Of a DNA stretch of 64,000 bases, positions 45,867-58,647 are shown piece by piece. The position numbers and the translations under genes are program-made. Source of the DNA: a virus (Duplodnaviria; Caudoviricetes); the IMG/VR virus record IMGVR_UViG_3300027971_000029, positions 1-64,000 of that record. One strand, given 5' to 3'. Below the pieces are notes generated by a model. That model worked only from the letters and a program-made list of their open reading frames with translations, was not told the DNA's origin and ran no database searches. The stretch's first letter is position 1, and each line of letters starts with the position of its first letter.

Positions 45867-48800
45867 TGGCAGAAAAAGCAATTAAAGTAGAACTATCCGA
45901 AGAAGATAGAAAAATACTTCTCGCCCAGAAAAAGGCGTTATCCGATATTCTGAAACCAGAAAAGAAGAGCAAGGGTATTGGCGCTATGGCTGCCGAAATG
46001 ATTCTTTCTGGAGAAAAGTCTTCTGTCATAGGTGCATTGGGTTCAGCAACCAAACAAAAAGCTACAGAATCTCTCCAAAATAAAACTGAACAACTTAAAG
46101 ATAAATTCGACCCACTAAACATAATTCACAGTATGTTTGGTGGCGGTGGTTTTGGTAGTGTTATGACTGCCGCCATTGGAAAAAGTATGGGTCGAGATGA
46201 AGATGATGTTCGTAAATTTGCAAGATTGGATCCAGCTGAAGATAGACCAGATGATGGTACCCCATCACAAATGCCAAGTGGTGAGGGTGGTGAAAAGAGC
46301 AATACCATGTTATCAGAAATGTTGAAGTATGTTATAAAAATTTCTGAAGACATTAGAGGATTAAAAGATTCTTCAAAAAATCAAGAAGGCCTTTTTAAAG
46401 ACCAAATTGAACTAGATGGAAAACAATTAAATCTAGAAGAGAAACAACTTGATGCCGCCAATGAAGCAAAATATGAGGCCGAGTTTGCAAAGAAAAAACC
46501 TACACCAGTGGGTGAAGATGGAAAAGATAAAAAAGAGACTAAAGAAGAAAAAGGATTCTTATCATCATTGTTAGGATTTGCTAGTGCATTGCGTATGATA
46601 GTAAGTGGTCCTTTCAAAGCCTTTGCCGCAATTTTAGGATTTGCATTATCACCTCTTCGTGCATTAGGAAAACTGCTCGGTGGTCCTTTATTGCGAGGTC
46701 TTGCGGCGGTTGGTGCCGCAGCACTTCCAGCCGCAAGAGCAATTGGTGCAAAAGCACTTGAGTATGGTGGTAAAGCAGTGACTGCCGCAACACCATATGT
46801 AAAAGCCGCAGGAGCAAAAGCACTTGAGTATGGTGGTAAAGCCTTAGAGGTCGGTAAATCAGTTGGTCGTTCAGCATTATCATATGCGGCAGAAAAAGCA
46901 CCACAACTAGTTGAAGGCGCTAAAGCATTTGGTAGTAAAGCACTTGATGTTGGTAAAAACATCGGCGCTAAAGTAGCAGAAAAAGCACCAGGTATTATAG
47001 AGGGTGTTAAGACTATGGGTGGTAAAGCACTAGAAGGTGCAAAATCACTTGGCGGTAAAGCATTGGAATCTGTAGGTCTTAAAGCCGCCGCACCAAAACC
47101 AGGATTTTTAACAGCGTTTGGTGAAGTGGGTGCAAAACGAGCCGCTGCCGCTGGTGCTGAGACAGCAGGTAAAGAAGGTATTGCCGCACTGATTAAAAAA
47201 GCGATTGCAAAAAGAGTTCCTAAAGCAGTTGGTTCTGCACTTGGAAAATCAGTACCATTTTTGGGTGCCGCTATTGGTGTTGGTTTTGCTCTTAGTCGTT
47301 TGATGGATGGTGATGTTGTTGGTGCTGGATTAGAAGCAGTCTCAGGTATTGGTTCTTTTGCTACAGCAATCCCTGCAACAATAGCACTTGTTGCAAAAGA
47401 TATCTATCAAGATGTTTATGGAGTTAAACCAGAATCAGACCCACAGTTTGGTGAGAGAATTGGATTGATTCAATCAGAAACTGAAGCCGCAGTGAAAGCA
47501 GAATTTGCTGGTAAGGTTGGAGAAGAAGAGAAAAAAGGCGGTGATAAAAAAGAGGGTGATAAAAAAGAGGGTGATAAAAAAGGCAATGCACCTGAAGAAA
47601 CAAAAGTTCCAGAAGCGCCTGAATTGAAAGGTGATACAAAGCAACAGGCTCAGCGTAAATCGGCTGAAGATACTGAATCTAGTATGAAACGCAATATGAT
47701 TACGGACAGAATCAACGCCGCAGGTGAAAACGCTAATGATCCTGATGTTCTCGCTGCCGCCGAAGAGTCGCTGAAACCAGGTTCGGAGGATTTTGAGACA
47801 GGATTAAAAAATCGTAGAAAAACAAAAACTGATGGAGGATTTAAACCAAAATCAGCACCATCACAAGTATCAAATTTAATGGACGGTGGTGGAGATGCTG
47901 TTGAACCTTTACCAGAAGAATCATCTGGAACAGGAGAAGACCTTGATGCTGAGTGGAATACAGATAATTATCCAACTATGTTTTATAGTTCATTTAAATT
48001 TGGGCAAGAAGACCCTGAGAATGCTAAAAAATATAACATATATCAAAGAACTCTTTCAGAAGAGTATGCATTGAAACGAGCAAAATCTTATGGTCGTGAT
48101 AAACCAAATCAAGATGATTATGATACAACTGGTGTGAAAGCATACAAAGATTCTTTATTGAAATTTCGTAAAGAACTTACGGCTTCAGGTGCGGCACTGT
48201 TTGGTGATGCACCTGCGGCAGAAGCGGCACCAGCAACTTCGCCATCACCTCCACCAGTAGAAGCACAATCAACACCACCACAAGAATCATCATCACAAGC
48301 GGCACCAACACCATTTGCATATTCAGCAACTCCAGAAGAAGATAACAATGATTATGCGGCGCCAGTAGAACCTGCGCCAGTAGAACCTTTACCAGCTGAT
48401 GCTTTTGAAACTGGTAAATTGGCTATAAAAGGTATGGTCAATAGTGCTGTAGATATGGACAAAGGTGCTCTTGCGCCTACGCAAGAAAAGGGAGAAAGAA
48501 CAGACTTCCAAATATCAACTCCACAAGGAACATTGATATTCCCAGACCAAGCTACTTTTGAGATGTGGAAACAAAAACCACAAAATGTAAGTTTTACTGA
48601 AATCCCTCAAGGGAAGTATGCACAAATAATAGAAGACCTTGGCTCTACAAAAGAAGAAAAGTTCAATGAGTCATTCCAAATATCAACACCACAAGGTACT
48701 CTGATATTCCCTGACCAAGCTACTTACAAAGAATGGCAGACTAATACACAAAATGTAGGGTTCACTCAAGGTCCTGAAGGGAAGTATGCTAAAACATTTG

Positions 48801-49033
48801 AATCTGCTGAATTGACACCAGCACGACCAACAACTGGTGAAAAAATGATGACTCAATCTAATGAAAATACTATGGCTAAGACAGAAGCAATGACTGGTGG
48901 TAACAATACAAACACTTCAATTGTGTCTGCACCAAAAGTTACAAATGCTACTAATGTAACGAATGCTCCAATCAATGTCAGAAACAGTGAGAACACATTC
49001 GTAAGAAATCAAGATAGAGTACACTATTTCTAA
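45866..49033 (+). CDS. Probable tape measure protein (gp29-like)
   Basis: 1055 aa; A/G/K-rich amphipathic ~11-residue repeats (GAKALEYGGKA); KSVPFLGAAIG segment; follows gp26/51. Confidence 0.7.
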   Translation: MAEKAIKVELSEEDRKILLAQKKALSDILKPEKKSKGIGAMAAEMILSGEKSSVIGALGSATKQKATESLQNKTEQLKDKFDPLNIIHSMFGGGGFGSVMTAAIGKSMGRDEDDVRKFARLDPAEDRPDDGTPSQMPSGEGGEKSNTMLSEMLKYVIKISEDIRGLKDSSKNQEGLFKDQIELDGKQLNLEEKQLDAANEAKYEAEFAKKKPTPVGEDGKDKKETKEEKGFLSSLLGFASALRMIVSGPFKAFAAILGFALSPLRALGKLLGGPLLRGLAAVGAAALPAARAIGAKALEYGGKAVTAATPYVKAAGAKALEYGGKALEVGKSVGRSALSYAAEKAPQLVEGAKAFGSKALDVGKNIGAKVAEKAPGIIEGVKTMGGKALEGAKSLGGKALESVGLKAAAPKPGFLTAFGEVGAKRAAAAGAETAGKEGIAALIKKAIAKRVPKAVGSALGKSVPFLGAAIGVGFALSRLMDGDVVGAGLEAVSGIGSFATAIPATIALVAKDIYQDVYGVKPESDPQFGERIGLIQSETEAAVKAEFAGKVGEEEKKGGDKKEGDKKEGDKKGNAPEETKVPEAPELKGDTKQQAQRKSAEDTESSMKRNMITDRINAAGENANDPDVLAAAEESLKPGSEDFETGLKNRRKTKTDGGFKPKSAPSQVSNLMDGGGDAVEPLPEESSGTGEDLDAEWNTDNYPTMFYSSFKFGQEDPENAKKYNIYQRTLSEEYALKRAKSYGRDKPNQDDYDTTGVKAYKDSLLKFRKELTASGAALFGDAPAAEAAPATSPSPPPVEAQSTPPQESSSQAAPTPFAYSATPEEDNNDYAAPVEPAPVEPLPADAFETGKLAIKGMVNSAVDMDKGALAPTQEKGERTDFQISTPQGTLIFPDQATFEMWKQKPQNVSFTEIPQGKYAQIIEDLGSTKEEKFNESFQISTPQGTLIFPDQATYKEWQTNTQNVGFTQGPEGKYAKTFESAELTPARPTTGEKMMTQSNENTMAKTEAMTGGNNTNTSIVSAPKVTNATNVTNAPINVRNSENTFVRNQDRVHYF
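47540..47582. repeat. 15-bp coding tandem repeat (GDKKE, ~3 copies)
   Basis: ggtgataaaaaagag repeated. Confidence 0.8.
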
Positions 49034-49060
49034 AAACAAAAAACCCCGCCTAGGCGGGGT
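49034..49060 (-). terminator. Rho-independent terminator between convergent tape measure and gp32
   Basis: ACCCCGC-CTAG-GCGGGGT hairpin with a T-run on the minus strand. Confidence 0.85.
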
Positions 49061-49080
49061 CAAACTTTTATAAAACTAGT

Positions 49081-49980
49081 TTATTCTTGTCCAGCCAAAG
49101 ATTTGAAATAATCCAAATCATCATCTGCTACAGACTTGCGGTCAATCCGCTCTAAATCATCTTCCGACAATTTGCGAGAGATGTCCGCAGACTCTGCCTT
49201 AGTTTTAGGTGCAACTGCACCACCATCAAAACCGAGGACCTTATCTAAACGAGCCTTTAGAACTTCATAAGACTTAAATTGTTTAGGCTCAAGGAATTCT
49301 TTGAGAGAATATTCTTGCTTCCACAATTCTTCTAGTTTAGAATCATCACCATCAAAAAGAGCAGACTTGTCCGCAAATTCTGATTTATCATAATTACGAT
49401 AGCCCTCGACATTACGAATCTTCAATTTGAAGTTAGCACCTTCCCACATGTCAAATGGATTGACAGGTGTCTCATCAGCGAATTCTGGATTCATTGCCTC
49501 TGAGATTTTATCAAAGATTTTCTTACCAAACTTGTACAGTTTGATTTGACCTTCGTTAGAAGGATTTGTTGGATCGGAAATCACCAAGATATTAGCGATG
49601 TAAGTCAACTTGCGTTTTTGCTTACGAGCAATTTCTTTGTTGGCTTCGATGCCAGAGTTCCAAAGAGTAGAGTTATACTCAGAGACTGGATCTTTTTGGT
49701 TAAGAGTAGTCAAAGAGTTTTCGATATACCAACCACCAGGACCTTGAAAGCCATGATTGAATACACGAACCCATGGCAGACCATCTTCACCATCAATAGA
49801 AGGTGCGGGTAGAAAACGAATAACAGCCATGCCATTACCTGCTTTATCTACTTCGGGTTGCCAAAAACGGGTGTCTTCTTTGGAGCCAGCCTCTACGGAC
49901 TGGTTATTAACTGATTCAACAGCCTTTGTCAATTTGTCGAATTGACTGCTATTGCGTTTGAGGTTTGCAAATGAACTCAT
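49081..49980 (-). CDS. gp32: Single-stranded DNA-binding protein
   Basis: DKAGNGMAVIRFLP, HGFQGPGGWYIENSLTTL, NPFD.WEGANFKLKIR, acidic tail. Confidence 0.96.
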   Translation of the reverse strand: MSSFANLKRNSSQFDKLTKAVESVNNQSVEAGSKEDTRFWQPEVDKAGNGMAVIRFLPAPSIDGEDGLPWVRVFNHGFQGPGGWYIENSLTTLNQKDPVSEYNSTLWNSGIEANKEIARKQKRKLTYIANILVISDPTNPSNEGQIKLYKFGKKIFDKISEAMNPEFADETPVNPFDMWEGANFKLKIRNVEGYRNYDKSEFADKSALFDGDDSKLEELWKQEYSLKEFLEPKQFKSYEVLKARLDKVLGFDGGAVAPKTKAESADISRKLSEDDLERIDRKSVADDDLDYFKSLAGQE

Positions 49981-50039
49981 ATGTATTTTCCTTTTGTATA
50001 ACGGAGTATGTTTGTATGAACGAATTATCCACAGTATGC

Positions 50040-50068
50040 ATTATATCTCATATATAGACAGATTGCAA
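50040..50068 (-). promoter_or_regulatory. Sigma70-type promoter for gp32
   Basis: TTGCAA-17 nt-TATAAT. Confidence 0.7.
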
Positions 50069-50650
50069 GTGGCTTTTTAAAATCTCCTGAAACTTTGCCT
50101 TATCATAATCAATGAATGGGGTATACTTAATTGCAGTCAAGCATACCTCAGGCCATCTAATTGTGTCATCGATTTTTCGACTCCACATTGGAAAGAAGCC
50201 TAGCATATCATTCAATATGCACAATGTTTCAAATTGAGTTTCTTTCCGTAATGTTCTTGTCAATAGAACAGGATATTCTCCATCTTCTACTTTCAAAATG
50301 TCATTGGGATTAGAATAATCAATAAACAATTCACGGCAGTCATTATCAAAGATATAACTGAGTGATTGATGGCTCATCAAAAACAATTTGTATATCGATT
50401 CGGCATCTTCTTCTAAGAGTTTGCCAACCCATATCTTATTGTCGATGATGAAATTTGAAACGAGAAATTTAACAAACTCTTCTCTACTATACTTCCGAGA
50501 AAGTTTGTAGAAATAGTATTTGTCTTTTCTCAATTCAAATGTCTGTACAGAAATGTTTGACTTTCCATTGTATTTGAAATAGTCATAACTCTTCTGTGTA
50601 AAATGTATCTTCAAAGAATTGTATAAAGCAAAGGCTTCATAACCAGTCAT
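50048..50650 (-). CDS. gp59: Helicase loader
   Basis: Y.SLKIHFT...YDYFKYNGK, RKDKYYF.KL, KYTPF; lies between gp33 and gp32. Confidence 0.9.
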   Translation of the reverse strand: MTGYEAFALYNSLKIHFTQKSYDYFKYNGKSNISVQTFELRKDKYYFYKLSRKYSREEFVKFLVSNFIIDNKIWVGKLLEEDAESIYKLFLMSHQSLSYIFDNDCRELFIDYSNPNDILKVEDGEYPVLLTRTLRKETQFETLCILNDMLGFFPMWSRKIDDTIRWPEVCLTAIKYTPFIDYDKAKFQEILKSHLQSVYI

Positions 50651-50663
50651 AATAATTATAATC

Positions 50664-50885
50664 CTAAATTGGTAACTTCGACACCGTAGGCATCATCCTC
50701 ATTTCTTGGGCATCACTTTCAATTTTAGATTTGAGATTAGAGTTTACCAAAGATGCGGCAACTTCAATTTCAAGTCCAGTCTCTCTACAATATTCAACTA
50801 TTGCATCAATGTGATTACACCTATGTCTCCGCATCATCTCTTCAATTGCTTTTGCAAACTTCATCATTTCATCACGAGTAGGCAT
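50664..50885 (-). CDS. gp33: Late transcription coactivator
   Basis: IDAIVEYC.E.GLEIE.AASLV...LKSKI..DA; synteny. Confidence 0.88.
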   Translation of the reverse strand: MPTRDEMMKFAKAIEEMMRRHRCNHIDAIVEYCRETGLEIEVAASLVNSNLKSKIESDAQEMRMMPTVSKLPI

Positions 50886-50887
50886 AA

Positions 50888-51148
50888 TTATTTTTTCGCC
50901 TGAGTTGTTCCAATGATTGATGGAGTGTTATGTGATTGCATTGAAGATGCAAATGCAATACAGATAATGTCTGTGCTAGATGCATATGAGCAACGAACCG
51001 ATAATGGGTCAATACCTTTTGATATTGCACTGTCAACATTCGCCGCCATTAATTTTCTATCATTGGTGTAGAAAAAAGTCATACCACCAATCAAGGCAAG
51101 CAAAATCAAAGTGGCTGAAATTTGTAATGAAATTTTATCGATAGGCAT
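50888..51148 (-). CDS. Hypothetical membrane-anchored protein
   Basis: N-terminal TM segment; KGIDPLSVRC. Confidence 0.7.
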   Translation of the reverse strand: MPIDKISLQISATLILLALIGGMTFFYTNDRKLMAANVDSAISKGIDPLSVRCSYASSTDIICIAFASSMQSHNTPSIIGTTQAKK

Positions 51149-51701
51149 ATTGGTTTTCCTTTAGTGTTTTAAAGTAAAAGATATGTCTACCAATCTGTGT
51201 GGTCTTGACCATATTCTTCCACTTAGGGTTTACATAATCTGCATGATAAAAAAGTGCTCCTGAAGTAGGGTCATCAATCTTTTCATAATTTGCATAGACA
51301 TATGTTGCTAAGTCTCGAATATCATTATATCTTGAATTGTATCCAGTTGTCAATACTTTAGAGGTAGAAATAGAATTATTCTTCTCTTCACACCACCATG
51401 AGAATTGACAAGTCTTTCCCACTTTCTGTTTAACAACACCACAGATGTTGTCTTCAAAATGTCCTGAATTCATTCTGTTGATTGTAACAAATGCTACAGC
51501 AAGTTGACCTTCTCTTGGTTCATATGCCGATTCAAAATAAATGTTTTCTGCTAGGCAATTAACTTGCTCTTTTGCTTTAGCGTTCAAACTAAAATAGTTT
51601 GCTGTGAAAGGTATAGATGTTTGTGAATCAGTAAAAATAAAAACTGATAAAAGTATACCTAACGAAATAATAGTACTCAAAAAGATTGAGTGTTTTAACA
51701 T
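51135..51701 (-). CDS. Cell wall hydrolase (SleB/Hydrolase_2 family)
   Basis: CLAENIYFES, ICGVV.Q, CQFSW, GALFYHADYVNP.W, IGRHIFY; N-terminal anchor. Confidence 0.9.
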   Translation of the reverse strand: MLKHSIFLSTIISLGILLSVFIFTDSQTSIPFTANYFSLNAKAKEQVNCLAENIYFESAYEPREGQLAVAFVTINRMNSGHFEDNICGVVKQKVGKTCQFSWWCEEKNNSISTSKVLTTGYNSRYNDIRDLATYVYANYEKIDDPTSGALFYHADYVNPKWKNMVKTTQIGRHIFYFKTLKENQYAYR

Positions 51702-51720
51702 TGGTTTTTCCTTTCATAGA

Positions 51721-51747
51721 AAAAAAGGGAGACCATTGCGGTCTCCC
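51721..51747 (-). terminator. Rho-independent terminator
   Basis: GGGAGACC-GCAAT-GGTCTCCC followed by a T-run on the minus strand. Confidence 0.85.
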
Positions 51748-51759
51748 ATAACCTTCTCT

Positions 51760-52032
51760 TTAAGAAGATTTCTTAGATACTTTTGGTTGTTCCGCAGGAA
51801 TGTTAGACACAAAACCATTAAGCACTTGTGCTTTGGCTATGATATCTACTTCTGAGGGATATGGCGGAAAACCAGGATGGGCTGGTGGGTCTTCGCCTTT
51901 GCTTTTTGAGGTATCGCATTTTGTGGACCAATCATTACTGATTTGTTCACGCTTACCAAAATAATCATCTGATAACATGTCTCTTGCCATTTTTAATAGT
52001 TCGAGACGGATTTCAAAAGGTGTCATTGACAT
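51760..52032 (-). CDS. Hypothetical protein with its own late promoter and terminator
   Basis: MTPFEIRLELLKMA...YPSE.DII.KA..LNGFVS; AGGAG SD. Confidence 0.8.
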   Translation of the reverse strand: MSMTPFEIRLELLKMARDMLSDDYFGKREQISNDWSTKCDTSKSKGEDPPAHPGFPPYPSEVDIIAKAQVLNGFVSNIPAEQPKVSKKSS

Positions 52033-52100
52033 AGATTTCTCCTTGTGTTGTGTAAAGTGTGTAGTGGATTATTTGAATGGGTCCCACCGAACCCATCATC

Positions 52101-52108
52101 TATTTATA
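52101..52108 (-). promoter_or_regulatory. T4-type late promoter TATAAATA
   Basis: Exact consensus on the minus strand upstream of 52032. Confidence 0.7.
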
Positions 52109-52111
52109 CAG

Positions 52112-52549
52112 TTAGAAACTGTATTTGATGCCAGCAGTGATACGGCTACCGTTTTGTGCGGCAACAGAATCTTGTCCTGAAATGTATGTATAGTCAACTA
52201 GACCAGTAACATTTTTCACGATTGGCATACTGAAAGTAGCACCAGCAAGGGCGGCATAGCCATCAGAACCAGTTGCACTGTCAACATACACACCACCAAA
52301 CTTTACACCAACTCCAACTGGTCCAATTTTTGTGATTTGGATTGTGTCGGTCAAACTGTAAAGGTCTGCGGTTGTACTACGATTGAAGCCTAGTGTCAAG
52401 TCTTGTCCAAAAACTTTATCACCCAATGTTAGACCCCAAGCATTTTCTCTGGAACTCAAATTTGTTCCACCATTAACACCAACTTCAACCGCTTGTGCAG
52501 ATGCTACTGCGACCATTAGTGATGCGATAATTGCAATTTTCTTAATCAA
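52112..52549 (-). CDS. Small outer-membrane beta-barrel protein
   Basis: Signal peptide ending AQA; alternating beta-strands; C-terminal GIKYSF beta-signal; TTG start with AGGAG SD. Confidence 0.8.
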   Translation of the reverse strand: MIKKIAIIASLMVAVASAQAVEVGVNGGTNLSSRENAWGLTLGDKVFGQDLTLGFNRSTTADLYSLTDTIQITKIGPVGVGVKFGGVYVDSATGSDGYAALAGATFSMPIVKNVTGLVDYTYISGQDSVAAQNGSRITAGIKYSF

Positions 52550-52566
52550 AATAAACTCCTTGTTGT

Positions 52567-52607
52567 AAAAAAAATGATAGCTTATTCTGTTACGAGGAAA
52601 GCTATCG
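52567..52607 (-). terminator. Terminator-like hairpin at the end of the tmRNA coding piece
   Basis: GATAGCTT...AAGCTATC stem followed by a T-run on the minus strand. Confidence 0.65.
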
Positions 52608-52875
52608 AAACCCTAGGCCGTGTTTAGGCAGCCAATGCGAACTGTGAGTCGTTTGCGTTTACTTTTTTTGCTTGATTAACGGTCATCGCCTACCGTGCTG
52701 TCCACTCTGTTACTTGTTGCCCTGTCGAAACTAGTCTCCCCCATCAAAAAGAACCTACTGAATTACGATGCAGTGGTGATTAATTATTTCACCCTCTAAG
52801 TTCTTTTTGGTGGAGGAGGGGGGATTCGCACCCCCGTCCAGAACACTTTTCTCTTTACTTCATACAGCAATATCT
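52570..52875 (-). ncRNA. ssrA: Two-piece (circularly permuted) tmRNA
   Basis: Acceptor piece ends GGGGG-TGCGAAT-CCCCC-CTCCTCC-A-CCA (CCA at 52810-52808). After a 65-nt spacer, the coding piece starts GGGGGAGACTAGTTTCGAC (52742), giving a 7-bp acceptor stem with G3-U70. Tag ORF 52656-52624 reads ANDSQFALAA*. Outer ends are approximate. Confidence 0.93.
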
Positions 52876-53537
52876 TGATGTTTCTTCACATAGTAAAGAA
52901 GGTCATCAATGTATTTATGTTTTGTTTCCTCGAATATCTGAGGCAATGTTTCATCATTCACTGCAATAGCTACCACGATTTGTTCGATTGGTAAACCAGT
53001 AATCTCTTCGAACATAATTGCATAAGCACTACATTGCATAAAATAATTTTTGATATGGTCTTTGTCTTTCAACCTGCTTGATGTTTTAAAATCGATGACA
53101 GAAAGTTTTCCTTTCCATTCAGCAATACAATCTACACGACCAGCAACTTTCAATTTATGAGAATACAATGCTTGCTCTAAACAATAGATGTTGCCAATGT
53201 TCTTCATCAATTCAGGTTTCAGTTGAAGAAACATCTCCTTCACATTCGGCATCATCATTTGTATTTTCATATCACTCAATTCATTGAGTAAAAACTTTTC
53301 ACAAACATCATGCACTGAAGTACCACGGCGAGATGCTTGGCTTGATATCTTATTCGCCTGCTCCTCGCCTACTCTCTTACGCCATTCCATGATTGCTTTT
53401 TTATTGTAAGCAGATAGAACAGTGGTGATAGAAGAATACTTCTCACCATTCGGTGTTGTGTATTTTCTTCCAGATTCAGTTGTTACAGCATTTAATTCAA
53501 AATCTAGTTCTGGAAGTTTCACATGGTTAAAAATCAT
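52860..53537 (-). CDS. PD-(D/E)XK exonuclease (phage exonuclease A type)
   Basis: YSSITTVL, RGTSVH, AGRVDCIAE, VIDFKTS, YFMQ..AY. Confidence 0.9.
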   Translation of the reverse strand: MIFNHVKLPELDFELNAVTTESGRKYTTPNGEKYSSITTVLSAYNKKAIMEWRKRVGEEQANKISSQASRRGTSVHDVCEKFLLNELSDMKIQMMMPNVKEMFLQLKPELMKNIGNIYCLEQALYSHKLKVAGRVDCIAEWKGKLSVIDFKTSSRLKDKDHIKNYFMQCSAYAIMFEEITGLPIEQIVVAIAVNDETLPQIFEETKHKYIDDLLYYVKKHQDIAV

Positions 53538-53857
53538 GTAGCGCCAACTCTCTTTGTAATTTTATCAACATGCTTTTTAACAATCTCTTGAGTCCTTGCT
53601 TGTTTAATAGATTTCTTACCATAACGGTGACCATGAGGACTTGCTGGATGCGCCTCTGCAACCTTAGATAACACATCTTTGAAACCATCAGGTACCCGAT
53701 TTTGTGTTGAAGTAGAAACACCAGAAACAATTGCTGGCGCTGTCATTACAGGATGAATGTGTGGATTATTTTTTAGATATTCTTCACGCTCTGAAATTTT
53801 CATAAACGATTCAAACTCTTCACCTGTCTCACTATTCAAAAAATTATATGTTGGCAA
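53534..53857 (-). CDS. FmdB-like small protein (no Cys ligands)
   Basis: Start reassigned to TTG with GGAG SD; MPTYNF...TGEEFE.FM.ISE...NPH...GFKDVL. Confidence 0.7.
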   Translation of the reverse strand: MPTYNFLNSETGEEFESFMKISEREEYLKNNPHIHPVMTAPAIVSGVSTSTQNRVPDGFKDVLSKVAEAHPASPHGHRYGKKSIKQARTQEIVKKHVDKITKRVGAT

Positions 53858-54398
53858 AATTTGTCTCCGGATACCAAAGAGGAACTGGTCTCTTCTTCCA
53901 CTTCGCAAGATGCGATTTGTTGTTTATATAGTAGTTGCGATAGGATGCAATAGAATCACCAACAATCTTCACTTCATCAGGCATTGCAGGTGTTGGCTCA
54001 GTAAAGTTTCCTCTTGGAATATTATTTGGTCGAACCTCTAATGCCCAAACAAGTTTTTCGCAAGCATGTTTTTTACCATAGCGATATGTGTATTCTTCAA
54101 GAAGAGATTCGAACATTTCGAATAACCAAGAATAATTTTTATCGCTTTGCCTTACCCAAACTGCTGAAGGATGATTGATATGAGTGGAAGCATAAAGCAA
54201 CTTATCACGATTATCATAAAGAACATATCGGCTTTGCTTTCGACCAGTGTCAGAATGGCCGACAACGATAGTACCATCAAGCACACGATGAGCAGTAGAA
54301 AGTAATTGAGCATATTCTAAAATCATTTTGACCACATGCTTATCGTTATGCATTTCTGCACACTTAGTCACATCATGGTCGAGGTAAAAAATATTCAC
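53844..54398 (-). CDS. Pyrimidine-dimer DNA glycosylase-like (DenV family) protein
   Basis: MNIFYLD...DKHVVKMILE.AQLLSTAHR, THINHPS..W, EYTYRYGK.H, AMPD. Confidence 0.75.
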   Translation of the reverse strand: MNIFYLDHDVTKCAEMHNDKHVVKMILEYAQLLSTAHRVLDGTIVVGHSDTGRKQSRYVLYDNRDKLLYASTHINHPSAVWVRQSDKNYSWLFEMFESLLEEYTYRYGKKHACEKLVWALEVRPNNIPRGNFTEPTPAMPDEVKIVGDSIASYRNYYINNKSHLAKWKKRPVPLWYPETNFANI

Positions 54399-54401
54399 GG
54401 T

Positions 54402-54761
54402 TTAATCCCATCTGCGGTGGTCTTCTGCTACATGTTCCCAACCATCGTATTCACTGATATGCCATTTAACATTATCAGGAATTTCAACGACAGCAAGTTC
54501 GGATGCCCAATTATTTGCGGCTTCACCCATCTCTTCAACTACAGCAACCAAATCTTCATCGGCACGATTTTCGTAAAGGTCATATGCGCTGATATAGAAA
54601 CTTTCATCACCAACATGTCCTTCTTGGAAATATGTGGAGCCAAAAACTTGAGAATCAGATGTTTTCTTTTCCCACTTCACACCCTTGCGGTCAAGCAATT
54701 TCTCTAAAGCCTCTTCGGAAAGACCAAAGCCGCCATGACATCTATTGATTACTACTTTCAT
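54402..54761 (-). CDS. Conserved phage hypothetical protein
   Basis: MKVVINRC.GGFGLS...R.D..LV.VVEEMG...EYDG.E.V.E.HR.W. Confidence 0.8.
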   Translation of the reverse strand: MKVVINRCHGGFGLSEEALEKLLDRKGVKWEKKTSDSQVFGSTYFQEGHVGDESFYISAYDLYENRADEDLVAVVEEMGEAANNWASELAVVEIPDNVKWHISEYDGWEHVAEDHRRWD

Positions 54762-54765
54762 AATT

Positions 54766-55083
54766 TCATTCCTTCAATGGACAGTGTTCATCATAACACA
54801 TACTATCACCAAGTTCACCTCTTGTCAAGCCACATCTGCCGCAGAGTTCATTAGGACTTTTATATTCTTGATATTCCTCTGTTGGAGGATCAAAGTCAGG
54901 TATCTCACCATAGTATTCTTCATCAGACACAAAATCTAAAGTGCCTGAAAAATGAAAACCAGACCCACGCAAAAACATTTCAAATTGTTCTAAAATATCT
55001 GGAAGATAATCTGCACTGAATTCAACAGTTGTTTCGGCACTGCGACCAGAGATGTTGTCAATTTGTTTAAAGATATATTTCAT
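54766..55083 (-). CDS. Hypothetical protein
   Basis: FE.FLRG.GF motif; C-terminal Cys cluster; GGAG SD. Confidence 0.7.
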   Translation of the reverse strand: MKYIFKQIDNISGRSAETTVEFSADYLPDILEQFEMFLRGSGFHFSGTLDFVSDEEYYGEIPDFDPPTEEYQEYKSPNELCGRCGLTRGELGDSMCYDEHCPLKE

Positions 55084-55099
55084 ATAAATCTCCAAAAAT

Positions 55100-55128
55100 A
55101 AAAAAATAGGTCTACGGTTAGTAGACCT
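55100..55128 (-). terminator. Rho-independent terminator
   Basis: AGGTCTAC-TAACC-GTAGACCT followed by a T-run on the minus strand. Confidence 0.75.
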
Positions 55129-55147
55129 CTAGACCTTGTGAAAAAAA

Positions 55148-55534
55148 TTAAGAGGTCTGTTCTGCCGTAGCAGTTTCAGTAACTGTCTCAACAGTTTCGG
55201 TAGCGGTTTCTTGAGCACCAAGGTCTGCAAGTTTCTTCACAGATTTAGTTTTGGCTTTAGCAACAGTTGTGCTAATACCACGCTTGGCAAGATACTTTGT
55301 CATTTCATCGACATTCATAAGTTGGTATGCAGTTACCTTGCGACCATCTTTAAATGCTTTGATGACACCGCCGCCAAGGGCTTTGATACACCAAATATAA
55401 GTTGAAAGACGATACACTTCAAGTTCATTACTCAAAGTTGCGGCAACTTCTTCTTTAGAAATTTCTTTGCCACTAATCATTGTAACGAGCAATTTCTCCC
55501 AGACTTTGGGATCAGTTTGTTTACCACGAGCCAT
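55148..55534 (-). CDS. Early hypothetical protein, possibly winged-helix DNA-binding
   Basis: Own promoter, GAGG SD and terminator; helix-helix-helix-beta-hairpin pattern (inferred). Confidence 0.65.
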   Translation of the reverse strand: MARGKQTDPKVWEKLLVTMISGKEISKEEVAATLSNELEVYRLSTYIWCIKALGGGVIKAFKDGRKVTAYQLMNVDEMTKYLAKRGISTTVAKAKTKSVKKLADLGAQETATETVETVTETATAEQTS

Positions 55535-55565
55535 TTAGACACCTCACATAGTTAATAATACACAC

Positions 55566-55594
55566 ATCATAACACAACGAAACCGCTTTGTCAA
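55566..55594 (-). promoter_or_regulatory. Sigma70-type early promoter
   Basis: TTGACA-17 nt-TATGAT with extended -10 TG. Confidence 0.8.
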
Positions 55595-55626
55595 CAGTCT
55601 CGCCACAATATTGCCCATTAGAGCAA

Positions 55627-55815
55627 TTACTTAAAGATACCATATTCGATAGCATCTTCATCATACGATTGGCTGGCATACATCATCATGTTATGCTCTG
55701 CCATTGAAATTTCAAACTGTTCAAGTTCGAAAGCATTCCAATAATCTTCAACTGCCTGAGCCTTTTCTGAGGCAGATACTTCATTAAGACATTCATTCAC
55801 TTCTTCGAAAGACAT
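55627..55815 (-). CDS. Small acidic early protein
   Basis: GGAG SD and own promoter. Confidence 0.65.
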   Translation of the reverse strand: MSFEEVNECLNEVSASEKAQAVEDYWNAFELEQFEISMAEHNMMMYASQSYDEDAIEYGIFK

Positions 55816-55844
55816 AATAAACTCCAATCAATTGAACATAGTCA

Positions 55845-55873
55845 ACTATAACACACTTTGGTGCAAATGTCAA
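55845..55873 (-). promoter_or_regulatory. Sigma70-type early promoter
   Basis: TTGACA-17 nt-TATAGT with extended -10 TG. Confidence 0.8.
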
Positions 55874-55876
55874 GCA

Positions 55877-56221
55877 CTATCTTCGCATGTTTGCCTGGTC
55901 TTTTGCATCATCTTTGCTAAAGATTGGCACAGCATTACTTTTGTGCAAAGTGCCAATACCTAGCATGGCATCACCAGTGTACACAGGTTTTGATTTTAGA
56001 GTGCCGCCATTGAATCCAGTGTTCAATGACGGATAACGAGACAAATCACGCTCAGGTGGAATGTAAGTTTTTGGTGGAATGTATGGTGTGAAAGATTTAG
56101 ACTTTTTAGTCTTCACTTTACCATACTTTTTTTCAAGCGATGACAACCACTCTTGGTGTTGTTCAGCTTGTTTTTTCGGTGTCTTTTTTTTCTTAGACCG
56201 ATTGTCAACATAAATCATCAT
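55877..56221 (-). CDS. Conserved basic T4-like hypothetical protein
   Basis: YTG..MLGIGTLHKSNAVP...A.MRR. Confidence 0.8.
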   Translation of the reverse strand: MMIYVDNRSKKKKTPKKQAEQHQEWLSSLEKKYGKVKTKKSKSFTPYIPPKTYIPPERDLSRYPSLNTGFNGGTLKSKPVYTGDAMLGIGTLHKSNAVPIFSKDDAKDQANMRR

Positions 56222-56436
56222 TTTGCCGTGACCTCATATTTTTGATAACCAACAAAATCTTCTTTTGTGTTCAGAATTATATCAGCCTGAAAGCAAAAAC
56301 GCAAGAAGTCTTTTTCAAAATCTTGGTCATCTGCCAAAATAGAAAGTTGTTCGCCCGAATTCATTTTATTGAGTTTCATGCGAACCTTCAGGATGGGAAT
56401 GGGACACTTCAGTCCACGACAATCAATTGAATGCAT
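56218..56436 (-). CDS. tusA: TusA/SirA-family sulfur carrier protein
   Basis: IDCRGLKCPIPIL (CPxP) motif; GEQL.ILADD..F..DF..FC; 72 aa. Confidence 0.85.
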   Translation of the reverse strand: MHSIDCRGLKCPIPILKVRMKLNKMNSGEQLSILADDQDFEKDFLRFCFQADIILNTKEDFVGYQKYEVTAK

Positions 56437-56581
56437 TAGGTTTTGTAACAGACCAGTACATCAATGCAAGACCAACCATGCACATAGCTAGTTCGCCAAG
56501 CAAATTAGAGTCAGCAGGTGCATTGTCGATACCACCAACAGCACCGAAAACAATGAAAAGACCGAGAAAAAATCGTATCAT
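56423..56581 (-). CDS. 52-aa membrane protein
   Basis: Below the ORF-track cutoff. MIRFFLGLFIVFGAVGGIDN...MCMVGLALMYWSV; AGGAG SD. Confidence 0.7.
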   Translation of the reverse strand: MIRFFLGLFIVFGAVGGIDNAPADSNLLGELAMCMVGLALMYWSVTKPNAFN

Positions 56582-56614
56582 GGAAAACTCCTTCTTTATT
56601 CAGATTACAGATAC

Positions 56615-56643
56615 ATTATGACACATCTGGAACCGTTTGTCAA
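56615..56643 (-). promoter_or_regulatory. Sigma70-type early promoter
   Basis: TTGACA-17 nt-CATAAT with extended -10 TG. Confidence 0.75.
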
Positions 56644-56771
56644 GTGCTTTTCCTAAAAAAAGTTGTTTAAAAACAACAACATACAACAGTGGAAATGCGG
56701 TTTTGGGCCGTTTTTCCGCTTGGCTAGGGTCAGAGTCTCAGTGGACAGCTAAAAGCCGCCTAAAAGAGGTT

Positions 56772-57119: not shown

Positions 57120-57695
57120 TTAAAGAATGCTATCCGCCACTCCAAGACTGATTAGTTGTTCGGCTTTGAGCCACGAGTCAGTCGGCGGTAACAATTTATT
57201 CTTGACTGTTTTTACATCAAGACCAGTTGCATCACATAGAATGTCGACCATGCGCTGATTACATAGGTCGGCTTCTTTCATGTGAGCCTTTATGTCATGG
57301 TACTTTCCTTCTGCCTCTTCGGAAAATTGATGACACATAATTCCTGTATTTTTTGAGATGATTCTTTCACCACGAGTTCCTGCTGAGAAGATGAGGAATG
57401 CCGCAGAGAAAATTGAACCAATGCCGATTGTTCTAATTGGGTACTTTGATTGTTTCATAACATCAATCAAAGCAAATGCTTGATACAAGTCACCGCCGCC
57501 TGAATTAACATACAGTGTCAAAATCTTACCTTCTTCTTCTTTGAAGTTCTCATAGGTAATCCATTCGATAGCTTCACGAATGTTAAATTCATCAATCTCA
57601 CCGCTGAGAAAAAAGATGTGGTTTTCAAGTAGACTGTGCCCAATAAGTTCACTTGGGCTGATAACTTCGTTATCTTTCTTTTTAGTTGTCGCCAT
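57120..57695 (-). CDS. clpP: ClpP-family serine protease subunit
   Basis: LYVNSGGGD, Ser in IFSAAFLI, His in IMCHQF, Asp in TDSWL, GVADSI. Confidence 0.9.
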   Translation of the reverse strand: MATTKKKDNEVISPSELIGHSLLENHIFFLSGEIDEFNIREAIEWITYENFKEEEGKILTLYVNSGGGDLYQAFALIDVMKQSKYPIRTIGIGSIFSAAFLIFSAGTRGERIISKNTGIMCHQFSEEAEGKYHDIKAHMKEADLCNQRMVDILCDATGLDVKTVKNKLLPPTDSWLKAEQLISLGVADSIL

Positions 57696-58647
57696 GTTTA
57701 AGGTGCCAATCATATGCAGTTGAAATAATGTTTTCTAAATTAAATTTTGAAGTAAAGTTGAGAAGTTCCTGCGCCTTGCTTATGTTGGATACAAGCATGG
57801 CAGGGTCGCCCGCACGGCGTGGACCGTAGGTGATGTTAACTTTCTGACCTGTCACTTTTTCAATAGTATCTACAATTTGTTTGTTCGAACATCCTGTGCC
57901 CGAACCAATGTTAAAAATATCACTCTTCTGGTTTTTCAAAAGATACTCAGCACTTGCCACATGTGCATCGGCAACATCTGAAACATGAATAAAGTCTCTG
58001 ATGCAAGTTCCGTCCGGAGTTTCATAGTCATCACCATAGAGTGTAAAGTTATTTAGATTCTGAAGAATTCTAGGAATCAAATGCGTTTCTGGTTCGTGAT
58101 TCTCACCCATCTCACCATCAGGGTCTGCACCACCGACATTGAAATATCTCAAGCAAATTGAATTGATATTCTCTTTCTGCATGTCAGTGAGTATTTGCTC
58201 ACACATTAATTTGTTGCGACCATAAACACTTGTTGGATGACATTCATCAGTTTCAAGAAACTTTTGATTGCCGCTACCATAGACACCAGCACTTGATGAG
58301 AACACAATATTTTTTACATGATGAATTGCCATCTCATTTAGCAGATTGATTGTGCCAGCAACATTCACATCATAATATTCACTTGGATATACCTCACTTG
58401 TGCCAACTTCAATCAAACCTGCTAAATGAAACACTGTATCGATTTTAACTTTACCAAAAAGAAAACTTAGTTCAGGCGCACGAATATCACACGGATAAAA
58501 CATATCAGTATATTCATGTGTTTGTGATTTTGATTTTGAATCAACAACGATAGTTCGCCAACCAGCTTTTTTCAATGCTTTGGTTACATGCGAACCGATA
58601 TAGCCGTAACCGCCAGTAATCAGTGCAGTCTTCATTTCTGATGCCAT
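57682..58647 (-). CDS. galE: UDP-glucose 4-epimerase
   Basis: TGGYGYIGSH, FSSSA.VYG, YGRNK, LRYFN, ETHLIP, DGTCIRDFIHV, RRAGDP. Confidence 0.92.
   Translation of the reverse strand: MASEMKTALITGGYGYIGSHVTKALKKAGWRTIVVDSKSKSQTHEYTDMFYPCDIRAPELSFLFGKVKIDTVFHLAGLIEVGTSEVYPSEYYDVNVAGTINLLNEMAIHHVKNIVFSSSAGVYGSGNQKFLETDECHPTSVYGRNKLMCEQILTDMQKENINSICLRYFNVGGADPDGEMGENHEPETHLIPRILQNLNNFTLYGDDYETPDGTCIRDFIHVSDVADAHVASAEYLLKNQKSDIFNIGSGTGCSNKQIVDTIEKVTGQKVNITYGPRRAGDPAMLVSNISKAQELLNFTSKFNLENIISTAYDWHLKHGDN

What the first reader, a model, noticed from the sequence alone, without database searches (positions are those of the whole stretch)
52570..52875. Phage-encoded two-piece (permuted) tmRNA with an intact ANDSQFALAA degradation tag
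Seen: on the minus strand the tRNA-like 3' half comes first (T-arm GGGGG/CCCCC, CTCCTCC-A-CCA). A 65-nt structured spacer follows, closed by AAAAGAAC/GTTCTTTT with two internal hairpins. Then comes the 5' half GGGGGAG. The halves form a 7-bp acceptor stem with the G3-U70 AlaRS determinant. The tag frame GCA AAC GAC TCA CAG TTC GCA TTG GCT GCC TAA ends in LAA. The T-loop is atypical (UGCGAAU). Established: permuted tmRNAs occur in alphaproteobacteria, some cyanobacteria and some betaproteobacteria, and C-terminal LAA is the ClpX recognition signal. Inference: the phage supplies its own trans-translation RNA, for example to rescue ribosomes stalled by host mRNA/tRNA-cleaving defences. The tag sequence may point to the host lineage.
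Basis: partly seen in the sequence, partly recalled or inferred. Interest (0 to 1): 0.85.

Follow-up and report, generated by a model that had tools for sequence, protein, structure and literature searches.

The report
Two-piece tmRNA gene in lake phage
An uncultured T4-like lake phage carries a real, intact, circularly permuted ribosome-rescue RNA (tmRNA) gene; this kind of phage gene is already published, so the find is a well-supported new member rather than a new kind of thing.

Summary
ARAGORN calls a permuted tmRNA with tag ANDSQFALAA. Rfam gives tmRNA_permuted 139.8 bits (cut-off 47) and beta_tmRNA 122.9 bits (cut-off 84) at 52552-52920(-). The window belongs to a 124.6-kb T4-like virus record with 29 tRNA genes and no smpB.

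I found 101 distinct related tmRNAs in viral contigs. On 40 of them the proposed helices pair in 94.4% of cells, against 47-56% in slid controls. 30 of 36 pairs change on both sides, and G3-U70 is kept in 39 of 40. The tag is under peptide-level selection.

The kind is in print. Buchholz et al. 2022 describe the two-piece tmRNA of phage Melnitz and count 53 two-piece forms among 133 unique phage tmRNAs.

Three details I did not find described:
- The odd T-loop (G55) covaries perfectly with a D-loop base (100 of 100).
- The spacer's closing helix covaries.
- A ClpP-like gene is often linked to the tmRNA.

The tmRNA type is a poor guide to the host. Interest is modest.

The parts
52552..52920 (-). 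Whole tmRNA (ssrA) gene as matched by the Rfam beta_tmRNA model. The structured RNA itself runs about 52869-52567.
   Evidence: RF01850 at 122.9 bits (cut-off 84) and RF04321 at 139.8 bits over 52624-52869. ARAGORN permuted tmRNA c[52533,52900].
52808..52869 (-). Acceptor piece (3' tRNA-like half). It comprises P2a 5' strand UGCUGU 52869-52864, P2 top 5' strand 52845-52839, T-arm 52835-52819 (T-loop UGCGAAU, G55 at 52829), acceptor 3' strand CUCCUCC 52818-52812 and encoded ACCA 52811-52808.
   Evidence: Coordinates. Helices 1-4 pair in 91.9%, 96.4%, 100% and 97.9% of cells, with changes on both sides in 5 of 6, 5 of 6, 5 of 5 and 3 of 7 pairs.
52743..52807 (-). Intervening segment (65 nt) predicted to be cut out of the precursor. 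It is closed by AAAAGAAC (52807-52800) pairing with GUUCUUUU (52754-52747).
   Evidence: fold. In one search, helix 5 has all 8 of 8 pairs changing on both sides and 92.5% of cells paired. Length in relatives is 5-237 nt, median 81 (99 of 101 measured).
52567..52742 (-). Coding piece. It comprises acceptor 5' strand GGGGGAG 52742-52736 (G3 pairs U70), the D-loop analogue ACUAG-UUUCGAC (A at 52732 covaries with G55), P2 3' strands (CAGGGCA within 52718-52730; ACAGCA 52701-52696), PK1 hairpin 52695-52680, tag frame 52656-52624 and terminator hairpin plus U8 52606-52567.
   Evidence: Summed depth of metatranscriptome contigs peaks here in 3 of 4 runs laid.
52624..52656 (-). Tag reading frame: resume codon GCA, peptide ANDSQFALAA, stop UAA.
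   Evidence: ARAGORN. In 52 unique 10-codon tags of relatives, Ala9 and Ala10 are invariant with 4 and 3 codons, and Leu8 is kept in 47 of 52 with 5 codons.
52860..53537 (-). PD-(D/E)XK exonuclease gene directly upstream. Its stop codon (52862-52860) lies just 3' of the P2a strand, so the gene's last codons overlap the start of the tmRNA. It is the conserved left neighbour of the tmRNA in relatives.
   Evidence: phrog_298 at 4.1e-71. PF12705. Among 80 related loci, 45 have an ARAGORN tmRNA call in the flank. Two of the no-call loci (L123, L126) carry the tmRNA by BLAST.
57120..57713 (-). ClpP-family peptidase gene, 4.2 kb upstream on the same strand. It is a possible partner that degrades tagged proteins; this link is inferred and not shown.
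   Evidence: PF00574 at 103.8 bits. Best NCBIfam hits are ClpP subfamilies (94.6 bits), all below curated cut-offs. Ser, His and Asp align with the catalytic positions of chain 3q7h_A.

Best explanation
This is a working ssrA gene of the circularly permuted, two-piece form, carried by an uncultured T4-like myophage of lakes.

Proposed mechanism:
1. The gene is transcribed as one precursor, laid out as P2 5' strand, T-arm, acceptor 3' strand with CCA, a 65-nt hairpin-closed spacer, acceptor 5' strand, D-loop analogue, P2 3' strand, PK1, tag frame, terminator.
2. Host tRNA-processing enzymes remove the spacer. RNase P cuts at G1 (52742) and 3' trimming stops at the encoded CCA (52808).
3. The two RNAs stay together through the acceptor stem and P2.
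4. Host AlaRS charges the complex through G3-U70.
5. Host SmpB and EF-Tu bring it to ribosomes stalled on broken mRNAs.
6. Translation resumes on GCA and adds ANDSQFALAA, which marks the product for Clp-type proteolysis. The phage's own ClpP-like peptidase may take part.

Shown here: the gene, its structure, its conservation, and selection on the tag peptide.

Inferred: processing, charging, tagging, and the benefit to the phage. The likely benefit is more ribosome-rescue capacity while host mRNA is being destroyed, alongside the phage's 29 tRNAs.
For: - Two independent detectors are far above threshold.
- The host record is a T4-like phage. It has gp32 SSB, gp59 loader and exonucleases, it is a 124,557-bp virus record, and gp32 is 55.7-66% identical to cyanomyophage homologues.
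- 101 distinct permuted relatives occur in viral contigs.
- On 40 relatives below 72% mutual identity: 94.4% of 1408 cells pair, 30 of 36 pairs change on both sides, 0 of 500 shuffles reach this, slid controls give 46.6-56.0%, and G3-U70 holds in 39 of 40.
- The tag frame shows synonymous turnover with a fixed peptide end.
- The odd G55 in the T-loop is matched by A in the D-loop analogue in 53 of 53. U55 goes with G in 47 of 47 at the same fixed offset (100 of 100 concordant). There are at least 14 changes on a tree built without those two bases. 10 of 10 independent pairs on supported branches go the same way (p 0.002). This means the tRNA-like elbow is kept folded.
- A terminator hairpin plus U8 follows the gene.
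- In 3 of 4 lake or freshwater metatranscriptome runs from 4 studies, summed contig depth over 52606-52741 exceeds the flanking genes. X1 reaches 5171 against 6-15, X2 44-47 against 11.5, X6 58.5 against 10.2, and X5 is flat.
- A ClpP-family gene with an aligned Ser-His-Asp triad lies 4.2 kb away.
Against: - No smpB, ClpX zinc finger or SspB was found in the record, which is only about 76% complete. The RNA must therefore rely on host factors.
- The middle of helix P2 does not pair as either Rfam model expects (pairs flagged).
- Only the hairpin of PK1 was tested, not the pseudoknot itself.
- The RNA evidence comes from assembled contigs. It shows neither ends nor strand, sums relatives at 93% likeness or more, and one of the four runs shows no peak.
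- No experiment exists on this RNA or, as far as the papers I read say, on any phage two-piece tmRNA.
Confidence: 0.88

Rival explanations
1. It acts mainly as a decoy. The tRNA-like domain soaks up host SmpB or AlaRS and shuts down host trans-translation, as reported for the tag-less tmRNA fragment of mycobacteriophage DS6A.
For: The phage has no smpB. PMC4131195 (passages read) says a DS6A-like tRNA-domain-only molecule strongly inhibits tmRNA. About half of the phage family has an altered elbow (G55 with A) that was not seen in real tmRNA T-arms in 401 bacterial genomes of one order.
Against: A decoy needs no message. Yet the resume codon, the frame length, the C-terminal Leu-Ala-Ala and the stop codon are all kept through many synonymous changes. 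PK1's hairpin and P2 also covary.
Confidence: 0.06
2. It is passive cargo: a host tmRNA gene, or the remnant of an integration site, picked up by the phage or mis-assembled into the contig, with no role in infection.
For: tmRNA genes are common integration sites, and fragments occur in prophages (PMC9004378 section 8; PMC4131195).
Against: - The gene is complete and flanked on both sides by T4-like core genes.
- A permuted tmRNA lies directly after, or within about 2 kb downstream of, the nuclease gene in relatives whose nuclease is only 45-69% identical.
- The relatives' tmRNAs differ by compensatory changes.
- The best bacterial match among 401 genomes of one order is 78% over about 140 nt.
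- Only 1 of 50,697 phage records gave a BLAST match, and that was 70 nt.
Confidence: 0.03
3. It is a selective tagging device. The phage uses its own tmRNA, with its ClpP-like peptidase, to mark and break down host proteins and recycle amino acids. Ribosome rescue is only a by-product.
For: This purpose is proposed for Melnitz in PMC9004378 section 8. A ClpP-family gene lies on the same strand as the tmRNA in 18 of the viral loci with a permuted tmRNA call (127 calls in all). It lies within 2.5 kb downstream in 13 of 79 loci that have that much flank. It is also present in the window.
Against: - Known trans-translation cannot choose its targets; it acts on stalled ribosomes (established knowledge).
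- Most loci with enough flank lack ClpP nearby (66 of 79).
- 7 of 9 ClpP-anchored loci have no tmRNA within 10 kb, and at least 5 of those sit beside tRNA arrays.
- The linkage may be inherited gene order only.
Confidence: 0.03

Closest known systems
ssrA of Methylophilales phage Melnitz and related pelagimyophage-like contigs (Buchholz et al. 2022, PMC9004378)
   Same: It is a permuted two-piece tmRNA in a T4-like aquatic myophage (Kyanoviridae by the record) with no smpB mentioned. It occupies the same genomic neighbourhood: PD-(D/E)XK nuclease, tmRNA, then gp33 and gp59 loader. In the window the order is nuclease, tmRNA and, further downstream, gp59 loader and gp32. The tag starts AND and ends ALAA.
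   Different: Melnitz scores best as alpha_tmRNA (106.7 bits), carries a glutamine riboswitch at its 3' end (52.8 bits) and has a 14-residue tag. The window's RNA scores as beta_tmRNA, has no riboswitch hit at E up to 1 and has a 10-residue tag. The two share only a 31-nt BLAST match. Melnitz is marine; this phage's close copies were found in lake and freshwater RNA runs.
Betaproteobacterial two-piece tmRNA (Rfam RF01850). The lineage was described by Sharkady and Williams 2004; that paper was cited but is not held, so its content is recalled only.
   Same: Best-scoring lineage model. Same order of parts, same P2 top, T-arm, acceptor and resume region. The tag ends in F-A-L-A-A, close to the ANDERFALAA found here in Rhodocyclaceae and other MAGs.
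   Different: - Bacterial copies are at most 78% identical over about 140 nt.
- The middle of P2 does not fit the model.
- G55 with A in the elbow was not seen in proper tmRNA T-arms of 401 genomes. Of 8 pattern matches, 7 do not end like a tmRNA acceptor and 1 has a mispaired stem. The U55 pattern matched 236 of 401.
- The carrier is a phage.
Caulobacter two-piece tmRNA (Keiler, Shapiro and Williams 2000; cited, content recalled)
   Same: It is the case in which a permuted gene was shown to give two base-paired RNAs that tag proteins. The mechanism proposed here is copied from it.
   Different: It belongs to the alphaproteobacterial lineage and is chromosomal. Its processing was shown by experiment; here it was not.
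One-piece phage tmRNAs (mycobacteriophages of the Bxz1 group, Bacillus phage G) and the tag-less DS6A fragment (PMC4131195, passages read)
   Same: These are phage-borne ssrA genes in large phages rich in tRNA genes.
   Different: They have the standard, unpermuted gene order. DS6A lacks a tag frame altogether.

Membership tests
Permuted (two-piece) tmRNA, Rfam RF04321 | Covariance-model score above the curated threshold | tested here: met
   139.8 bits against a cut-off of 47, E 2.2e-27, model positions 1-213 of 213.
Permuted (two-piece) tmRNA, Rfam RF04321 | Gene order permuted: T-arm, acceptor 3' strand and CCA lie upstream of the acceptor 5' strand and the message | tested here: met
   Sequence read. 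ARAGORN labels it 'Permuted', with the 3' tRNA domain at 55-93 and the 5' domain at 159-184 of the gene.
Permuted (two-piece) tmRNA, Rfam RF04321 | 7-bp acceptor stem formed between the two pieces, with the G3-U70 alanine identity pair | tested here: met
   Helix 4 pairs in 97.9% of cells and 3 pairs change on both sides. U-G at the G3-U70 position occurs in 39 of 40 sequences.
Permuted (two-piece) tmRNA, Rfam RF04321 | Tag reading frame with an alanine resume codon, a hydrophobic Ala-Ala end and a stop codon | tested here: met
   GCA ... GCU GCC UAA gives ANDSQFALAA. Peptide-level conservation was seen in 52 unique 10-codon tags.
Permuted (two-piece) tmRNA, Rfam RF04321 | Pseudoknot PK1 upstream of the resume codon | tested here: inconclusive
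   The hairpin part (52695-52680) covaries: 4 of 4 pairs change on both sides and 85.5% of cells pair. The second PK1 stem was not defined or tested.
Permuted (two-piece) tmRNA, Rfam RF04321 | Precursor processed into two separate RNAs | tested here: inconclusive
   Only assembled contigs of RNA libraries were available, and they cannot show ends.
Permuted (two-piece) tmRNA, Rfam RF04321 | Charged by AlaRS, bound by SmpB, tags nascent chains | not testable with these tools
   This needs biochemistry or genetics. No smpB is in the record.
Betaproteobacterial lineage of two-piece tmRNA, Rfam RF01850 | Best lineage-specific model above threshold over its full length | tested here: met
   122.9 bits against a cut-off of 84, positions 1-331 of 331. 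Lower-scoring overlapping matches of the same clan were dropped by the tool.
Betaproteobacterial lineage of two-piece tmRNA, Rfam RF01850 | Lineage-specific P2 middle helices | tested here: not met
   The pairs of the middle P2 segment are flagged as non-standard in the window's alignment to RF01850 and RF04321.
Betaproteobacterial lineage of two-piece tmRNA, Rfam RF01850 | Close sequence kinship to tmRNAs of betaproteobacterial genomes | tested here: not met
   The best of 401 genomes of the order around an Advenella MAG is 78% over query 157-297. 51 of 401 genomes have any match, and most of the listed ones are short T-arm matches of about 30-45 nt.
Melnitz-type phage ssrA (PMC9004378) | Alphaproteobacterial-type RNA with a glutamine riboswitch at the 3' end | tested here: not met
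   Melnitz gives RF01849 at 106.7 bits and RF01739 at 52.8 bits. The window shows no glutamine riboswitch at E up to 1 in 49000-57000.
Melnitz-type phage ssrA (PMC9004378) | Position between the PD-(D/E)XK nuclease gene and the gp33/gp59 genes of a T4-like myophage | tested here: met
   Melnitz annotation. In the window the nuclease is at 52860-53537, the tmRNA follows, and the gp59 loader is at 50048-50650. gp33 was not identified in the window.

The most novel reading that the evidence does not exclude
The phage lineage has made trans-translation partly its own.

About half of its tmRNAs carry a re-wired tRNA elbow (G55 with A in place of U55 with G). I did not see this in real bacterial tmRNA T-arms. 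The elbow switched back and forth at least 14 times, always in step.

The genes often travel with a phage ClpP-like peptidase and large tRNA arrays. By an earlier unverified note, a cut-down RNase P RNA that lacks the elbow-reading half also travels with them.

If the altered elbow changes recognition by host enzymes or defence nucleases, the phage would run a private rescue-and-degradation line that stays on when the host's is shut off or attacked.
Probability: 0.12. Interest if true: 0.6.

Novelty: new member of a known kind. Interest (0 to 1): 0.35.

Why it matters
The result turns an exciting-looking find into a securely annotated one. Permuted tmRNA genes are a regular feature of aquatic T4-like phages, in lakes as well as the sea.

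The 101 distinct viral copies gathered here form a natural mutagenesis set for the two-piece tmRNA. It supports every helix of the tRNA-like domain, shows that the spacer is closed by a conserved helix (a likely processing signal), and shows a compensated change in the T-loop/D-loop elbow.

The mix of alpha-like and beta-like forms within this phage group, with both kinds found directly after the same nuclease gene, warns against reading a phage's host from its tmRNA.

The recurring ClpP neighbour gives a testable idea about why phages carry the gene.

Tried and rejected
Host by tmRNA similarity
Of 120 loci, ARAGORN called 24 permuted, 84 standard and 12 none.
- The best hit, L317 (190 bits, tag ANDEQFALAA), lies among small unknown ORFs and 4 tRNA genes. 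Its 6.9-Mb assembly has a second tmRNA-like match elsewhere. I take it for a viral contig binned into a MAG and not a host. I never saw its title, because only 80 of the 120 rows were listed.
- The order-wide BLAST gave no close copy, and the tool gives no taxon names for these genomes.
- No host is proposed. No psbA was found in the record.

Similar tmRNA in deposited phage genomes
- BLAST found 1 record of 50,697, a 70-nt match in Xanthomonas phage Rb1.

Leads from earlier notes
- ArfA-like protein: no PF03889 match at E up to 1.
- RNase P-like RNA: no RF00010 match in the record, and nothing at E up to 1 in the tRNA-cluster locus. I could not reproduce the lead and I do not rely on it.
- ClpX zinc finger and SspB: none found.

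Spacer and RNA cover
- No tRNA inside any spacer by ARAGORN, although some relatives' spacers hold T-arm-like words.
- The runs laid left the spacer (52742-52809) with little or no cover, and no contig bridged it. The adapter-like loose end at 52731 (2 records in X1) is 11 nt from the predicted 5' end and is not used.

Promoter
- The sigma-70 scan gave no more sites than shuffles did (7 against 9.0).
- T4 late-promoter-like TATAAATA (up to 1 mismatch) is enriched upstream of the family's tmRNAs: 53 of 134 against 33.7 +/- 4.7 in shuffles, maximum 46. The window itself has only CATAAATA at 52919-52912, inside the nuclease gene. This is a hint only.

Papers
- Searches for 'phage-encoded tmRNA' (0 papers), for tmRNA+ClpP+myovir+freshwater (97 papers; the top one read in passages was irrelevant to tmRNA) and for two-piece tmRNA+intervening+RNase P found no description of the elbow covariation, the spacer helix or the ClpP linkage. 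These searches cover open-access text only.
- Sharkady and Williams 2004 is not held.
- Supplements are closed. Table S1 of PMC9004378, which lists the phage two-piece tmRNAs, may already contain beta-type or closely related examples.

Full report
THE OBSERVATION.
- A T-arm (GGGGG, loop UGCGAAU, CCCCC; 52835-52819).
- The acceptor 3' strand CUCCUCC with an encoded ACCA (52818-52808).
- A 65-nt spacer (52807-52743).
- The acceptor 5' strand GGGGGAG (52742-52736).
- Further on, the frame GCA AAC GAC UCA CAG UUC GCA UUG GCU GCC UAA (52656-52624).

ARAGORN calls a permuted tmRNA with tag ANDSQFALAA. Rfam at curated thresholds gives tmRNA_permuted at 139.8 bits (cut-off 47) and beta_tmRNA at 122.9 bits (cut-off 84) over 52552-52920. 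A hairpin followed by eight U ends the gene at 52567. The next ORF starts at 52549 behind an AAGGAG site.

THE CARRIER. The window is the first 64 kb of a 124,557-bp virus record that CheckV puts at 76% complete.
- Around the tmRNA lie T4-type replication genes: gp32 SSB, the gp59 helicase loader and two exonucleases. A cell-wall hydrolase and a pyrimidine-dimer glycosylase are also there.
- gp32 is 55.7-66% identical to those of cyanomyophages among the top records listed.
- The nuclease next to the tmRNA is 53.5% identical to that of Phage C48C1 and 46.8% to that of phage Melnitz. Both records are filed under Kyanoviridae.
- The record holds 29 tRNA genes at 76.9-83.0 kb.
- It holds no smpB and no psbA.

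A LARGE FAMILY, AND COVARIATION.
- A pattern for the T-arm and acceptor end hit at least 120 viral contigs; the scan stopped at its limit.
- The nuclease protein brought in 80 related loci.
- ARAGORN found a tmRNA in 97 of the 120 and in 45 of the 80. In the 80, all but one extra call were permuted. In the 120, most were permuted and 14 calls were of the standard form.
- The count is a lower bound. Two near-identical loci without a call, L123 and L126, do carry the gene by BLAST, and L123 has about 110 extra bases in the spacer.
- There are 101 distinct permuted sequences, 67-90% identical to the window's over the parts that BLAST aligns.

I aligned 40 sequences that are below 72% identical to each other. 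I then counted pairs for a structure projected from the window.
- 94.4% of 1408 cells form standard pairs, against 46.6-56.0% when partners are slid by 1-3 columns.
- 30 of 36 pairs change on both sides.
- No shuffle of 500 reaches any observed measure.
- The T-stem pairs in 100% of cells, with all five pairs covarying.
- The acceptor stem pairs in 97.9%. G3-U70 is present in 39 of 40, and the two terminal G-C pairs are invariant.

THE TAG IS READ AS PROTEIN. Among 52 distinct 10-codon tags:
- Codons 9 and 10 are alanine in 52 of 52, while using four and three different codons.
- Codon 8 is leucine in 47 of 52, through five codons.
- Codon 1 is alanine and codon 2 asparagine in all.
- The stop is UAA (48) or UGA (4).
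- Positions 4 and 5 vary freely.

This is the pattern of a translated tag whose C-terminal end is under selection.

THE 'ATYPICAL' T-LOOP IS COMPENSATED.
- G at the second T-loop position (tRNA position 55) occurs in 53 of 100 viral tmRNAs.
- Every one of these has A at a fixed place in the D-loop analogue, nine bases before the end of the UCGAC word (52732 in the window). All 47 with U55 have G there.
- On a maximum-likelihood tree built with both bases masked, each state changes at least 14 times. In 10 of 10 independent pairs on supported branches the two sites change together (sign test p 0.002).
- I read this as the tRNA-elbow contact, known in tRNA as G18-pseudouridine 55 (established knowledge), being replaced by an A-G contact. 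That reading is an inference.

In bacteria the variant looks rare.
- Among the ARAGORN calls on loci from the bacterial genome collection, it appears in 1 of 55 that could be parsed. That one is L317, a probable viral contig.
- In 401 genomes of the order around an Advenella MAG, the G55 pattern matched 8 genomes. Seven matches do not end like a tmRNA acceptor, and one has a T-stem that cannot pair.
- The U55 pattern matched 236 of the 401, and nearly all matches listed look like true tmRNA ends. That tally includes three unpublished genomes.

THE SPACER. Its length varies from 5 to 237 nt (median 81; 99 of 101 measured). The helix that closes it, just after CCA and just before G1, is kept through changes on both sides at all 8 pairs, with 92.5% of cells paired. 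In the window the fold shows this helix and one firm inner hairpin. A conserved helix that brings the two processing sites together is a plausible processing signal. I did not find it described in the open-access text I could search, and the key 2004 paper is not held.

LINEAGE AND HOST.
- The window's RNA scores best as the betaproteobacterial type.
- Bacterial permuted tmRNAs from the one genome scan come from Alcaligenaceae (Advenella, Pelistega; tag ANDESYALAA), from Rhodocyclaceae (Dechloromonas, Azonexus, Thauera, Azoarcus, Accumulibacter; tags ANDERFA[ILV]AA) and from a Cupriavidus MAG, by their record titles.
- None is close. The best of 401 genomes is 78% over about 140 nt.
- Among 19 diverse viral relatives plus L317, all 20 match tmRNA_permuted. 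15 score best as beta and 4 as alpha. One reaches no lineage model at gathering.
- One alpha-scoring RNA (L191) sits directly after the same nuclease gene as several beta-scoring ones.
- Melnitz, whose host is on the gammaproteobacterial tmRNA branch by the paper's account, has an alpha-type RNA in the same neighbourhood.

So the type varies within one phage group and, at least in part, at one slot. It is not a safe pointer to the host.

WHAT IS ALREADY KNOWN.
- Buchholz et al. 2022 (PMC9004378; abstract, passages and section 8 read) describe the two-piece tmRNA of Melnitz.
- They count tmRNA genes in 402 of 18,146 phage genomes, with 133 unique forms. 53 are two-piece by ARAGORN, and 50 of those come from marine or aquatic samples.
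- They find permuted tmRNAs in 17 of 47 Melnitz-cluster contigs.
- The 2025 tmRNA database paper lists 79 unique phage sequences (PMC11915505, passages read).
- Hudson et al. 2014 list one-piece phage tmRNAs and the tag-less DS6A form (PMC4131195, passages read).

The kind is therefore known, and this is a new member. It differs from Melnitz in lineage model, tag length, lack of a glutamine riboswitch and habitat.

EXPRESSION.
- 22 public runs hold part of a 1-kb stretch around the gene. 18 are on record as RNA, from 19 studies, labelled lake water, freshwater or aquatic metagenome.
- I laid the contigs of four RNA runs from four studies.
- In three of them the summed depth over the 5' two-thirds of the coding piece exceeds that over the flanking genes. 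X1 reaches 5171 against 6-15, X2 44-47 against 11.5, and X6 58.5 against 10.2.
- In X5 the depth is flat.
- These are contigs. They sum related phages at 93% likeness or more and show no ends or strand.

I count this as modest support that the RNA is abundant, and no more.

NEIGHBOURS THAT MAY BEAR ON FUNCTION. I tested each.

- ClpP is real (57120-57713, minus strand).
  - PF00574 scores 103.8 bits.
  - It matches ClpP subfamilies better than the ClpP-related head protease, 94.6 against 58.3 bits, though all are below NCBI's cut-offs.
  - Ser, His and Asp align with the catalytic positions of a solved ClpP.
- A ClpP homologue lies on the same strand as the tmRNA in 18 viral loci, in two arrangements.
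  - It is 1.1-2.6 kb downstream in 16 loci. Two of these are only 26% identical to the window's protein.
  - It is 3.3-5.9 kb upstream in 2 loci, as in the window.
  - Among loci with at least 2.5 kb downstream, 13 of 79 have it there.
- Of 9 ClpP-anchored loci, 2 have the tmRNA within 10 kb. At least 5 of the others sit beside tRNA arrays.
- The linkage is suggestive but may be inherited gene order.
- ArfA was not found.
- The RNase P lead did not reproduce with Rfam.

VERDICT. This is a real, intact, conserved two-piece tmRNA gene of a lake T4-like phage. It is very probably functional and dependent on host SmpB, AlaRS and processing enzymes. The category is published. The compensated elbow variant, the conserved spacer helix, the mixed lineage types within one phage group and the ClpP linkage are modest additions worth a specialist's look.

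Noticed in passing
window 52829 and 52732; viral loci L003-L202: T-loop position 55 (G or U) covaries perfectly with one base of the D-loop analogue (A or G). It is 100 of 100 concordant, with at least 14 switches on the tree. The G55 form was not seen in proper tmRNA T-arms of 401 bacterial genomes.
   Followed up: yes
window 57120-57713 (-); loci L016, L022, L026, L033, L044, L056, L058, L062, L064, L073, L077, L092, L098, L101, L119, L120: A ClpP-family peptidase gene with an aligned Ser-His-Asp triad lies on the same strand a few kb from the phage tmRNA, in two different arrangements. In other relatives it sits beside tRNA arrays.
   Followed up: partly
G000:C1:76898-83025 (beyond the window): A cluster of 29 tRNA genes, all on the minus strand, covers all 20 amino acids. 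A related contig (L339) has 31 tRNA genes next to its ClpP homologue.
   Followed up: no
window 52112-52549 (-): The gene just downstream of the tmRNA encodes a 145-aa protein with a signal-peptide-like start. It has a weak, sub-threshold match to the YfaZ outer-membrane family (19.7 bits, cut-off 23) and no PHROG match.
   Followed up: partly
L317 (genome-contig locus) 2224-2627: A permuted tmRNA (tag ANDEQFALAA) with the G55 elbow lies among 4 tRNA genes and small unknown ORFs. Its 6.9-Mb assembly has another tmRNA-like match elsewhere. It is probably a phage contig binned into a bacterial MAG.
   Followed up: partly
L123 1443-1582: In a relative whose nuclease is 99% identical, the tmRNA spacer is about 110 nt longer than in the window, and ARAGORN misses the gene. 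The spacer is a hot spot for insertions.
   Followed up: partly
L092 and L108, intervening segments (alignment A1 columns about 130-280): Some relatives' spacers contain T-arm-like words (GGTTCAATTCC, GGTTCGAATCC, GGTTCAAGTCC). ARAGORN finds no tRNA there.
   Followed up: partly
window 52912-52919 (-) and the upstream regions of 134 viral tmRNAs: T4 late-promoter-like TATAAATA (up to 1 mismatch) is enriched within 110 nt upstream of the family's tmRNAs: 53 of 134 against 33.7 +/- 4.7 in shuffles. It clusters 45-50 nt before the GGAC anchor. The window has CATAAATA further upstream.
   Followed up: partly
window 45866-49033 (+): A 1055-aa ORF on the opposite strand has only a weak PHROG peptidase match and no Pfam family.
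   Followed up: no
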